From assembly GCA_000002445.1 (NCBI GenBank), contig CP000070.1, positions 1,632,001-1,696,000 on the forward strand: DNA of 64,000 bases, written 5' to 3'. Shown here piece by piece: positions 21,001 to 24,000 of this stretch. Source of the stretch: Trypanosoma brucei (lineage: Eukaryota). A program made the position numbers. The number at the start of each line of letters is the position of its first letter. The first letter of the stretch is position 1.

Positions 21001-24000
21001 AGGTCACCCTTCAGCGACGTAACCTCTACTGTGCTCCGCCGTGACAGGGCCTCAGACGCATCGGAGCTTGCTACAATTTTTTTTTTTAGAATTTTCTTCG
21101 TGCCTTCGTGAGAGTTTCCCCCCACTGGCGCGGCCATCAGCCATCACCGTAGAGCCCTGAGATGCTATCGGTCTGGCGACTGTGGCAGAGTCTCCCTTTT
21201 TCATTCATCCTAACACACCCTCTATAATTTTTGTTGTATTTCCGCATATGAACGGAATACAGCAGATGGGGCGAGAAGCCTCCCACCCTGGACTCTCCCA
21301 AAGATGCCAATTGGCAATCCTTTTTTGGAGGTCCACATCACCGGACAGCAGCATCTTAGCGCGGATGATACTGCTGATGGCACGCTGGCACGTGCCCAGG
21401 GACCGACAAATGAAAAACGGTGTCCCAGCAAGACGCTGCTGATCCCTGTGCTGTATGATGCCGTAGCCGGAGCACAGCAGTGTTCCCCATGAAAGGAACG
21501 CTGCTGGCTCTTGGCTTCCCCCGATGATACGGGGTACTGGACCCTGGCACCACGTTGAGGTGGCCGGCATCGCCAGGGTAATTGGATCTTGATAGCAAAG
21601 GCGAACGCAAATTTGCAATTCCAGCCAACGAAGGTTGGAGCACACACACACTGTCAGAAGTAGTTGACAAGTCCATGGAGGTACGTTTCCCCTTATGGTC
21701 TGTTATGTGGCCAACTTTCGCCGCTATACGGTGAACCGTGTCCCGGCAGTAGGCCTCAGATCATCCGCTGTTCTTGCGCAACAATGACACACGCCACCGT
21801 TCGCACAGAGGTAACAGCAGATTCTGCCGCTGGGCTGGTGCGAACACACCGAGCAGCGAATCCAGGGATATGGCAACCTGCCTGGCAGAATCAGTTAACC
21901 CAGCACAAAGCGAACTCACCTCACTCAACGAGGGGCTCGAACCCTCATCGTCCAATCCAGGGCCATCGCGGTCCAGCCTCAGTGCAGCAAAAGTGCGACC
22001 GGGAATTGGGTTCAGCTGGTACATCTCCACAGGATTGGGAACACCGCGTAACGCTACAGGGCCCAGTGCAGTTACATCAAACTGCTCACGCTCTACCACA
22101 CTCAGCGACATGTAGGTCGCACGTGTCATCAGCACTTGCCCGCCGTTCGCAACACTCTCTGTCCTTGCTGCCATATTCGCTGTCCGTCCATAGTAGTCAT
22201 ATCCCTTCGTCACCTCATCGTACCGGATGTCGCACAGTCCAGTGTGGATCCCAACACGCACACGCAGGCCACGCCATAGTCGGCCGTACACCTCACGGTC
22301 CAGATGTGCCGTCGGCGGAGTGTACCCTTCCTCTTCCTCGGCGCGCTGCAGTTCAAACTCACGGTATGACTCATCCAACGCAGCTGTCCCCCAATTGTGG
22401 TGCAAAAAGTTATGCTGCAAGTCACAAGCTAGACGCACAGCCGCAGAGGGGCTCCGGCACGCAATCATGAAGGAGTCCCCGACTTTCTTCACCTCGTAGC
22501 ACCTGTAGTGCATAATCAACGCACGAATTAGCCGATGATGTGTCGCTACAGCGTCCGGCATCATCTCTGGGTGCGCCGCCCACTGTGCAGTACTGCTTTC
22601 GATATCTGTGAAGATGAGCGTCACGGGATCCGTTGGTTCCTTCGGTGCATTTGCGTTATCACGCGCATCCGCAAAATACCGACACAATACGACAACGATC
22701 ACCACTACTAGAAGCAAAAAAAACAAAACGGCGCCCACACAAACACCAATCAACCGTGCCCCCGTCAGTCTCCCAGCGTCACGGTCCTCATACTGCAGCA
22801 GTTGAGAGATTGGTTCGGCAATCGGTGGGACCGACGGATCCAGTGCACGTGCCATTGACCACACAGCAATACCTGTCGCACCGTAGTTTGTTAAACAGTC
22901 ATTCCACAGACCCACCTCCACCTTGCCGCATCCCTCTGTGCCATACGGGCCGTAGCGCATGTCATCAGCTCGCAAATAAGTCTCCGAAAAAAAGAGATTC
23001 GACAGGGTATCTGCGTCCACCTTCTTTAATTGCGGGAGAACCGTCCGCAGCAAGTTTCCGGCAGCAAACCCCATTAACGACAGTGGTGTCCACTTCGACT
23101 TATCCTTCATAGCATTGTGAAACTTTTTCACAGTATCCGACGACGGGTTCCCATCAGCCCAGTGTGGAAGGTTTGTCGCGAACAGCAAACGGTTACTACT
23201 CGAGCTTCCAGGACCCTTATCCCTAAACACACGGACAAACGTCTGGTAGTATAATGCCACCTCAGTAAAAGGGACGTAAACGAATAGCTTGGGGTTGGCG
23301 CTGAGGTGCTTCGCAATCACCTCGACGTCGTCCTGTTTGAGGCCTATGACAAACACGTCACCCTCGCGGGGAAGATAGCCTGTGACAGAGACTGTCCCAT
23401 TCAGCATTACCAAAGACTGAGGTTCCTGATAAAACCGACTCAGCGACATATTAACCACCTTTTCAATTCTATTTGATTCGGAGCTGCTGATGACAGAGTG
23501 CACCCCTATTGAGCCCTTCTCTCCCAAATACTTGGCGATCACAAACAGTTGCTGCTCCAGTGTGGCAGAGAGGTATATCACACGTTTGTTAGGTGTTCGG
23601 AGGCGAGGAACAAGAAGCACCGGATCAACAACAACGAAGGTCGATGTGCTCAGTAACGCTTCATCCGTAACGCCCATGACAACGGTCACAAGCTTTTCCT
23701 CCTCCTCACGTTTTAAACGCTTCCAAATGGTGCCTGAGCTTGTGTTGATCCTGTGCAAGAAGAATCTATCGTAATCTCCGAGATCCCCAGTGCCCACAAG
23801 GAGACTCGCACCTCCATGCCACTCCTCGGCCGCGTTCAGTGACAATTGACTGTTATCCATAAACGTGGCAACAGCTGCCAGCGGGGCATGAAGCCGGGAC
23901 CCGTCCGTATCGCATCGAGATGTTCCCAACGCCATGAAACCACTCTTTACACTCTCCAGCCGAAAGCCCTCCACGAGCCTTTTCATGTATACTGCCTTAC

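What the first reader, a model, noticed from the sequence alone, without database searches (positions are those of the whole stretch)
21078..21570. Poly(A)-terminated retroposon inserted in the 3' end of adenylate cyclase copy 4, with a 26 bp target deletion and no target-site duplication
Units 1-3 read gcttgctacaat-accaaccgacgccaaatcaccgttat-cgccagggtaattgg. In unit 4 the middle 26 bp is replaced by a 493 bp element. The element ends with a T11 run on the plus strand, which is an A11 run on the minus strand, and its other terminus reads GGACCCTGGCACCACGTTGAGGTGGCCGGCAT. Its size, poly(A) tail and terminus fit a RIME, the short non-autonomous partner of ingi. Ingi and RIME normally create target-site duplications of about 12 bp, so an insertion-associated deletion is atypical. 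It may reflect microhomology-mediated repair or insertion at a nick.
Basis: partly seen in the sequence, partly recalled or inferred. Interest (0 to 1): 0.5.

Follow-up and report, generated by a model that had tools for sequence, protein, structure and literature searches.

The report
RIME retroposon insertion with microhomology deletion
A young, full-length RIME mobile element sits in the tail of one adenylate-cyclase gene copy of Trypanosoma brucei TREU927; it entered at a normal ingi/RIME target site, but its front end was joined through a 10-base match to the gene, which removed 24 bases instead of making the usual 12-base duplication. This is a tidy but minor variant of known retroposon behaviour.

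Summary
In the fourth of four tandem GRESAG4 adenylate-cyclase units (T. b. brucei TREU927 chromosome 7), a short stretch present in units 1-3 is replaced by a poly(A)-ended element.

- **Identity:** the element is a RIME. Published RIME-LAMP primers match 159/160 nt. Its two halves match the first 247 and last 246 nt of a 5,255-bp ingi.
- **Boundary correction:** all four reference RIME/ingi copies begin CCCTGGCGATGCCGG.
- **Overlap:** those first 10 nt, CCCTGGCGAT, are also in the uninterrupted gene copies. The junction is a 10-nt overlap, and the unambiguous target loss is 24 bp.
- **Target site:** in the empty site the poly(A) junction falls exactly at the published Tbingi/RIME endonuclease signature (6/7 positions, p≈0.001). 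First-strand nicking was canonical.
- **Age:** the site is empty in T. b. gambiense DAL972 and T. b. equiperdum, so the insertion is young.

Best model: normal target-primed reverse transcription, then microhomology annealing of the cDNA end. A canonical insertion followed by a 46-bp deletion between the 10-bp repeats gives the same sequence and is not excluded.

The element family is known and the junction type is known from L1. Interest is low to moderate.

The parts
21078..21578 (-). Full-length RIME, 501 bp including A10. Its 5' end on the minus strand is at 21578 (CCCTGGCGATGCCGG...).
   Evidence: ingi nt 1-247 match 21578-21332 at 98.4%, and ingi nt 5010-5255 match 21324-21078 at 92.3%. 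The element is 497/501 identical to the DAL972 RIME in L002. RIME-LAMP primers match 159/160.
21569..21578 (-). 10-nt junction overlap CCCTGGCGAT. It is both the canonical first 10 nt of ingi/RIME and the target sequence found in the empty sites of units 1 and 2.
   Evidence: Four of four reference ingi/RIME copies start CCCTGGCGATGCCGGCC. The exact 10-mer occurs at 1438-1447 and 7995-8004 in units 1 and 2; unit 3 has TCCTGGCGAT.
21502..21578 (-). Pr77 / '79-bp signature' hallmark: the first 77 nt of the element. In L1Tc this region acts as an internal promoter and an HDV-like ribozyme.
   Evidence: Colinear with the published L1Tc Pr77 oligo CCCTGGCTCAGCCGGCCACCTCAACGTGGTGCCAGGGTCTAGTAC.... 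Function is inferred from PMC1874656 and PMC4035085 and was not tested here.
21078..21087 (-). Poly(A) tail, A10 (A11 if the ambiguous base at 21077 is counted).
   Evidence: Sequence read.
21066..21077 (-). ATTGTAGCAAGC: the 12 nt that a canonical insertion would have duplicated as the TSD. It is present only once, 3' of the poly(A).
   Evidence: In the empty sites it is immediately preceded by the ingi4 signature.
1414..1437 (-). Reference empty site in unit 1: the 24 bp missing from unit 4 (sense strand AACGGTGATTTGGCGTCGGTTGGT). It contains the endonuclease signature core TGGCGTCGGTT at 1417-1427. Equivalent stretches lie at 7971-7994 and 14529-14552.
21205..21570 (-). RIME-internal ORF of 121 aa (MPATSTWCQGPVPRII...), starting at element nt 9.
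   Evidence: It is 99% identical to the DAL972 'T. brucei spp.-specific protein' P0077.
21761..25273 (-). GRESAG4 unit 4 ORF as it now stands: 1170 aa, XP_846231.1. It ends at a TGA (21761-21763) that is TGG in every other copy examined.

Best explanation
A RIME RNA, mobilised in trans by ingi-encoded endonuclease/reverse transcriptase, inserted into the C-terminal coding region of the fourth GRESAG4 copy in the TREU927 lineage.

**Step 1 (well supported).** The ingi endonuclease nicked the bottom strand at a canonical ingi4-type site. On the sense strand this reads ...TGGCGTCGGTTGGT^ATTGTAGCAAGC. [quoted passage not shown]

**Step 2 (inferred).** The usual top-strand cut 12 nt downstream and fill-in would have produced a 12-bp TSD. 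Instead, the upstream DNA end was resected. The 3' end of the cDNA, which is the complement of CCCTGGCGAT, annealed to the identical 10-mer lying 24 nt upstream of the nick. The 36-nt top-strand flap (24 nt plus the would-be TSD) was trimmed, and synthesis and ligation completed the insertion.

The outcome is a full-length RIME with no TSD and 24 bp of target lost, including the endonuclease recognition motif. This is micro-single-strand-annealing (MMEJ) applied to the TPRT intermediate. MMEJ is the end-joining route T. brucei uses, since NHEJ has not been detected there.
For: **RIME identity**
- Primers match 159/160.
- The two halves match the ends of a 5,255-bp ingi.
- The element is 99% identical to a DAL972 RIME.

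**Canonical 5' terminus**
- CCCTGGCGATGCC begins 4 of 4 independent copies and is colinear with L1Tc Pr77.
- The same 10-mer is present in the empty sites of units 1 and 2.
- The two canonical RIMEs with 12-bp TSDs show 0-nt overlap at their 5' junctions.

**Endonuclease dependence**
- The published ingi4 signature is AxxxxxxxTxxxGTxGGxTxxx^(12-nt TSD).
- It matches 6/7 positions in exact register with the poly(A) junction.
- The background frequency of a score of 6 or more is 0.00125 per position.
- The core motif occurs 30 times in 128,000 strand positions.
- The A10 tail is intact.
- A reference RIME (L002) scores 7/7 on the same rule.

**Ancestral state**
- The orthologous unit-4 site is empty, with the 24 bp present, in T. 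b. gambiense DAL972 and T. b. equiperdum.
- The 24 bp are in-frame coding sequence.

**Host repair fits**
- T. brucei end joining is exclusively MMEJ, using 5-20 bp microhomologies.
- Proximity to the break and GC content favour its use, and the mean deletion on the near side is 54 bp (PMC3045614).
Against: - The sequence cannot show when the microhomology was used. A later deletion gives the identical product.
- A 10-nt match to the element's extreme 5' end within a few tens of nt of the nick is itself a rare coincidence (about 1e-4). Both models need it.
- In human L1, full-length insertions show no excess 5' microhomology. Target deletions go mainly with 5'-truncated copies (PMC2912911). 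The L1 analogy is therefore imperfect, unless the cDNA here was in fact up to 10 nt short.
- There is no independent confirmation of the junctions from reads or other assemblies.
Confidence: 0.58

Rival explanations
1. Two-step origin. The RIME first inserted canonically, with a 12-bp TSD (ATTGTAGCAAGC on both sides). Later, a 46-bp deletion occurred between the two direct copies of CCCTGGCGAT, one in the target and one at the RIME 5' end. The deletion arose by MMEJ after a break or by replication slippage. It removed the upstream TSD copy and the 24 bp.
For: - It yields exactly the observed sequence (derived from the sequences).
- It uses the same documented T. brucei MMEJ properties.
- It keeps the insertion step fully canonical: 12-bp TSD as in L002 and L003, and signature 6/7.
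Against: - It needs a second, independent break or slippage event within a 46-bp interval, in a young element absent from two sister lineages.
- In the one-step model the integration itself supplies the break.
- No intermediate allele was seen, but only two other lineages could be examined.
Confidence: 0.3
2. Endonuclease-independent capture of a RIME cDNA or RNA at a pre-existing nick or double-strand break. This is the first reader's 'insertion at a nick', analogous to non-classical L1 insertion.
For: There is no TSD, target DNA was deleted, and there is junction microhomology. These features are listed for non-classical L1 insertions (PMC1920257).
Against: - The poly(A) junction falls in exact register with the ingi4 endonuclease signature (6/7, p≈0.001).
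- The element has an intact 3' end with A10.
- Non-classical insertions are defined by the absence of endonuclease hallmarks.
Confidence: 0.05
3. Artefact or secondary rearrangement. Either the tandem array was mis-assembled (chimera), or ectopic recombination between two RIME copies removed the TSD.
For: - Tandem 6.5-kb repeats are hard to assemble.
- The TREU927/DAL972 comparison paper notes that ingi/RIME recombine and cause rearrangements (PMC2854126).
- The junctions could not be confirmed in independent data.
Against: - Both flanks are colinear with the empty site to the nucleotide, and only 24 bp are missing. Inter-element recombination would exchange the flanks.
- The junctions coincide with the exact canonical 5' end, a poly(A) tail and an endonuclease site. 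A chimera would not reproduce these.
- The window has no N and no other RIME.
Confidence: 0.03

Closest known systems
Canonical TbRIME insertions (ingi4 subclade; non-autonomous partner of Tbingi)
   Same: - About 500 bp, made of the ingi 5' and 3' ends.
- Pr77/79-bp hallmark starting CCCTGGCGATGCC.
- Poly(A) tail.
- Insertion at a site carrying the TxxxGTxGGxTxxx^ signature.
- 99% identity to other copies.

   Different: - No 12-bp TSD.
- 24 bp of target, including the recognition motif, are deleted.
- There is a 10-nt element/target overlap at the 5' junction. Two canonical DAL972 RIMEs examined have 0 nt.
Endonuclease-dependent human L1 insertions with target-site deletion and 5'-junction microhomology (cell-culture and genomic L1 studies summarised in PMC2912911)
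   Same: The first-strand nick is canonical. 5' attachment is aberrant, giving loss of target DNA and a junction microhomology. This implicates host end-joining or annealing in 5' attachment.
   Different: - In L1 these features go with 5'-truncated copies and microhomologies of 1-5 bp. Full-length L1s show only chance-level microhomology.
- Here the element is, or appears, full-length, and the overlap is 10 nt.
- The host lacks detectable NHEJ.
T. brucei chromosomal MMEJ / micro-SSA deletions (Glover, Jun & Horn 2011, PMC3045614)
   Same: A 10-bp, 70% G+C microhomology close to the break, with a deletion of tens of bp. This lies inside the reported range: 5-20 bp microhomology and a mean of 54 bp lost on the near side.
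   Different: Those events repair I-SceI breaks between chromosomal sequences. Here one partner would be a nascent retroposon cDNA (one-step model) or the retroposon's own 5' end (two-step model).
Non-classical (endonuclease-independent) L1 insertion (PMC1920257)
   Same: No TSD, target deletion, terminal microhomology.
   Different: An endonuclease target signature and an intact poly(A) tail are present here, so this is not a member.

Membership tests
TbRIME (ingi4-subclade non-autonomous retroposon) | About 0.5 kb, composed of the 5' ~250 bp and 3' ~250 bp of ingi | tested here: met
   A 5,255-bp ingi (L004) matches at nt 1-247 to window 21578-21332 and at nt 5010-5255 to 21324-21078.
TbRIME (ingi4-subclade non-autonomous retroposon) | Sequence identity to published RIME | tested here: met
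   Eight RIME-LAMP primer segments from PMC4358998 map colinearly at 159/160 nt. Identity to the DAL972 RIME is 497/501.
TbRIME (ingi4-subclade non-autonomous retroposon) | 5' Pr77 / 79-bp hallmark beginning CCCTGGC | tested here: met
   Colinear with the L1Tc Pr77 oligo and with four T. brucei copies. The first 10 nt cannot be assigned to element or target.
TbRIME (ingi4-subclade non-autonomous retroposon) | 3' poly(A) tail | tested here: met
   A10 at 21078-21087 on the minus strand.
TbRIME (ingi4-subclade non-autonomous retroposon) | Flanked by a 12-bp target-site duplication | tested here: not met
   ATTGTAGCAAGC is present only 3' of the element, and 24 bp are deleted instead. This is a feature of the insertion event, not of the element sequence. 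A reference ingi (L004) also lacks a TSD.
TbRIME (ingi4-subclade non-autonomous retroposon) | Insertion site preceded by the ingi4 signature AxxxxxxxTxxxGTxGGxTxxx^ | tested here: met
   6/7 positions match in the empty sites, in exact register with the poly(A) junction. Background P(score of 6 or more) is 0.00125.
HDV-like ribozyme (L1TcRz type) in Pr77 | Nested double-pseudoknot fold with self-cleavage at +1 | tested here: inconclusive
   No Rfam family matched, even at E<=10. The MFE fold is not distinctive, z=-0.63, and cannot represent pseudoknots. The P1 complementarity, CCCTGGC at nt 1-7 with GCCAGGG at nt 31-37, is visible in the sequence. Cleavage is not testable here.
L1-style EN-dependent insertion with target-site deletion | Canonical first-strand nick plus loss of target DNA plus 5'-junction microhomology | tested here: met
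   Signature at the nick, 24-bp loss and 10-nt overlap.
L1-style EN-dependent insertion with target-site deletion | Association with 5' truncation of the element | tested here: inconclusive
   The element reads as full-length. A cDNA truncated by up to 10 nt would be indistinguishable because of the overlap (L1 pattern).
Endonuclease-independent (non-classical) retroposon insertion | No endonuclease target motif at the junction; often 3'-truncated or lacking poly(A) | tested here: not met
   An endonuclease signature is present and the A10 tail is intact. The definition is from PMC1920257.

The most novel reading that the evidence does not exclude
In T. brucei, where NHEJ is undetectable, host MMEJ / micro-SSA may be a regular route for attaching the 5' end of ingi/RIME cDNAs. 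If so, many of the TSD-less ingi/RIME copies would be one-step, deletion-generating integrations guided by chance matches to the conserved CCCTGGCGAT terminus. They are usually put down to inter-element recombination. This locus, with its orthologous empty sites, would be the first nucleotide-resolved footprint of that route. A sense-oriented, Pr77-intact RIME in the tail or 3' UTR of a GRESAG4 gene could also cleave or drive transcripts there.
Probability: 0.25. Interest if true: 0.45.

Novelty: new member of a known kind. Interest (0 to 1): 0.25.

Why it matters
- **Integration mechanism.** This is a clean filled-site/empty-site pair for a trypanosome retroposon. It shows that RIME was mobile after TREU927 split from the T. 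b. gambiense and T. b. equiperdum lineages. It is also a natural example of how an ingi/RIME integration can end in a small deletion through a 10-nt microhomology, in an organism that relies on MMEJ.
- **Annotation.** It shows that element boundaries, and therefore 'deletion sizes', are mis-set when terminal bases are shared with the target.
- **Gene family.** One GRESAG4 copy in the reference strain carries two strain-specific lesions, a nonsense codon and the RIME, in its C-terminal tail.

None of this changes current understanding of non-LTR retrotransposition.

Tried and rejected
- **Rfam scan of 20900-21800 at E<=10.** Only chance miRNA/snoRNA-like hits appeared, and no HDV-like family.
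- **MFE fold of the first 80 nt.** Not distinctive.
- **Literature string searches for the RIME 5' sequence.** These returned only the L1Tc Pr77 oligo. The key paper on ingi/RIME target sites (Bringaud et al. 2004, MBE) is not held. The signature was therefore taken from a later paper by the same group.
- **Exact-protein look-ups.** Nothing is on record for the unit-4 ORF, the 762-aa neighbour as read from the window, P0002, or two junction-spanning ORFs. Independent confirmation of the junctions, and a survey of further strains such as Lister 427, T. evansi and T. b. rhodesiense, could not be done.
- **Two metagenome scans** for the flank and for the RIME 5' end returned 0 hits.
- **Ideas rejected:**
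  - *The 24/26 bp is an insertion in units 1-3.* Rejected because it is in-frame coding sequence, present in all units and in two other lineages.
  - *Inter-RIME recombination.* Rejected because the flanks are colinear.
  - *The shared 10-mer in units 1 and 2 was copied from the RIME by gene conversion.* Rejected because it belongs to a longer haplotype block that extends well upstream of the element.
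Full report
**1. What is in the sequence**

The window carries four tandem units of about 6.55 kb. The anchor GCTTGCTACAAT lies at 1402, 7959, 14517 and 21066. Each unit has a ~1,270-aa ORF on the minus strand with the Pfam architecture of trypanosome receptor-type adenylate cyclases.

Exact-sequence look-up places the window on chromosome 7 of T. brucei brucei TREU927. Units 1-4 are XP_846228.1 to XP_846231.1 (GRESAG4). 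The next gene, of 762 aa, is XP_846232.1.

Units 1-3 have 26 bp where unit 4 has 493 bp (21078-21570). Unit 3 differs slightly from units 1 and 2, both inside and beside this stretch. The genes are on the minus strand, so the site is in coding sequence about 35 codons before the normal stop. The insert is in the same orientation as the gene. It has no second copy in the window.

**2. It is a RIME**

- All eight target segments of the published RIME-LAMP primer set (PMC4358998, Table 1) map colinearly to element positions 223-472 with 159/160 identities.
- A search with the element's 121-aa ORF returned only T. brucei-group proteins. Fetching their loci gave two RIMEs from T. b. gambiense DAL972 and two ingi from T. 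b. equiperdum.
- The insert is 497/501 identical to the DAL972 RIME in L002.
- It matches nt 1-247 and nt 5010-5255 of a 5,255-bp ingi. This is the classic RIME structure of ingi ends with the middle missing.

**3. The true 5' end and the 10-nt overlap**

All four reference copies start CCCTGGCGATGCCGGCCACC. This is colinear with the published L1Tc Pr77 sequence CCCTGGCTCAGCCGGCCACC... (PMC1874656).

In the window, homology to ingi runs to 21578, not 21570. The 10 nt CCCTGGCGAT (minus strand, 21569-21578) are also present at the corresponding place in the uninterrupted units 1 and 2. Unit 3 has TCCTGGCGAT.

The structure on the sense strand is therefore:

- Empty site: CCAATTA-[CCCTGGCGAT]-AACGGTGATTTGGCGTCGGTTGGT-ATTGTAGCAAGC
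- Filled site: CCAATTA-[CCCTGGCGAT]-GCCGG...RIME...A10-ATTGTAGCAAGC

The unambiguous target loss is 24 bp, or 34 bp if the overlap is credited to the element.

A 10-nt match to the extreme 5' end of the element at the junction is far beyond chance. The probability is about 1e-6 per position, or about 1e-4 allowing 100 candidate positions. The two canonical DAL972 RIMEs have perfect 12-bp TSDs (TGAAAAAAGATT and TTTAATTATTTA) and no such overlap.

**4. The 3' junction is a canonical endonuclease site**

Retroposons of the ingi clade make 12-bp TSDs and are preceded by a subclade-specific motif taken to be the endonuclease recognition site. For Tbingi/TbRIME (ingi4) the motif is 5'-AxxxxxxxTxxxGTxGGxTxxx^xTxTxxTxxxxx-3', where the arrow marks first-strand cleavage (PMC3820030).

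In the empty sites, the 22 nt preceding ATTGTAGCAAGC read CGGTGATTTGGCGTCGGTTGGT. This matches 6 of 7 specified positions in exactly the register set by the poly(A) junction.

- Only 0.125% of positions in the window score 6 or more.
- The core TNNNGTNGGNT occurs 30 times in 128,000 strand positions.
- The same rule scores 7/7 on the L002 RIME and 6/7 on the L004 ingi.

Together with the intact A10 tail, this indicates ordinary endonuclease-dependent target-primed reverse transcription. It does not indicate capture at a random break. The recognition motif itself lies within the 24 bp that were lost.

**5. Polarity and age**

The orthologous unit, adjacent to the 762-aa gene, has an empty site with the 24 bp intact in both other lineages examined:

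- T. b. gambiense DAL972 (L001/L007).
- T. b. equiperdum (L006).

Neither locus contains any RIME. The filled state is therefore derived and specific to the TREU927 lineage among the three. This agrees with the element's 99% identity to other copies. The published DAL972/TREU927 comparison also notes ingi/RIME indels between the two genomes (PMC2854126).

**6. Mechanism**

*Shown:* RIME identity, the canonical nick site, the absence of a TSD, the 24-bp loss, the 10-nt overlap, and the ancestral empty state.

*Inferred:* how the 5' end was joined.

The most economical model is that the TPRT intermediate was resolved by microhomology annealing.

1. The upstream end was resected.
2. The 3' end of the cDNA paired with CCCTGGCGAT, 24 nt upstream of the nick.
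3. The 36-nt flap, which includes the would-be TSD, was removed.

This matches what is known of T. brucei break repair. No NHEJ has been detected. MMEJ uses 5-20-bp microhomologies, is favoured by proximity to the break and by G+C content, and causes near-side deletions averaging 54 bp (PMC3045614).

The main rival is a canonical insertion with a 12-bp TSD, followed later by a 46-bp deletion between the two CCCTGGCGAT copies. It gives the identical sequence and cannot be excluded. I rate it lower only because it needs an extra break or slippage event in a young element.

Three other readings are disfavoured, for the reasons given under the rival explanations:

- Endonuclease-independent insertion (hallmarks from PMC1920257).
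- Inter-element recombination.
- Mis-assembly.

**7. Comparison with what is known**

The element is an ordinary member of a well-known family in a reference genome.

The junction type, a canonical nick with target deletion and 5' microhomology, is well known for human L1. There, however, it goes with 5'-truncated copies and overlaps of 1-5 nt, and full-length L1s show only chance-level overlap (PMC2912911). A copy that appears full-length with a 10-nt overlap is therefore a slightly unusual instance. A cDNA up to 10 nt short would look the same.

I found no paper in the searchable library linking ingi/RIME integration to microhomology. That is a statement about that library only.

**8. Consequences for the gene**

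Unit 4 also carries a TREU927-specific TGG>TGA change at 21761-21763, 61 codons upstream of the RIME. This gives the annotated 1,170-aa product, which retains the cyclase domain. The order of the two lesions is unknown.

With the TGA in place, the RIME lies downstream of the stop. It is in sense orientation and has an intact Pr77. By analogy with L1Tc, Pr77 could act as a promoter or ribozyme (PMC1874656, PMC4035085). That was not testable here.

**9. Verdict**

Two refinements matter: the element's real 5' boundary with its 10-nt overlap, and the canonical endonuclease site. This is a known element showing a known class of integration outcome, and it is of modest interest.

Noticed in passing
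window 21761-21763 (minus-strand codon): A TGG>TGA nonsense change truncates GRESAG4 unit 4 to 1,170 aa (annotated as XP_846231.1). The codon is TGG in units 1-3 and in the unit-4 orthologues of DAL972 and T. b. equiperdum. This copy therefore has two TREU927-specific lesions.
   Followed up: yes
L001 3451-7050 (T. b. gambiense DAL972, FN554970.1): The DAL972 orthologue of unit 4 (1,199 aa) is independently cut short by a frameshift or stop in the C-terminal variable block, about 100 nt upstream of the empty RIME site. This may be a real lesion or a sequencing error.
   Followed up: partly
window ~14553-14760 versus 1438-1650, 7995-8207 and 21569-21790: The C-terminal block of the cyclase is mosaic. 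Unit 3 carries a divergent haplotype relative to units 1, 2 and 4. Every DAL972 and T. b. equiperdum copy examined at this site has the unit-3-like GCCATCCTGGCGAT rather than AATTACCCTGGCGAT. This suggests gene conversion among array members.
   Followed up: partly
window 33290-39000: Four tandem units of about 1.5 kb, each with a 214-219-aa minus-strand ORF. The orthologous genes in L006 and L007 hit PF12036 (DUF3522). This fits the 'Tb927.7.6110, 4 copies' array listed in PMC2854126.
   Followed up: partly
window 41000-44000 and 49000-53000: AT-rich blocks (G+C 0.31-0.35, against about 0.5 elsewhere) with strong local GC-skew swings. They contain few long ORFs.
   Followed up: no
L004 9993-15247 (T. 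b. equiperdum CM010679.1): A full-length 5,255-bp ingi with a 6/7 upstream signature but no recognisable 12-bp TSD (gccagttttact upstream, tttcctttccag downstream). A reversed partial ingi 3' end lies just upstream, at about 9317-9548. This is another TSD-less copy that would be worth reconstructing against an empty site.
   Followed up: partly
L001 15745-15844: A 100-N assembly gap lies inside the DAL972 GRESAG4 array. Copy number and spacing there are not reliable.
   Followed up: yes
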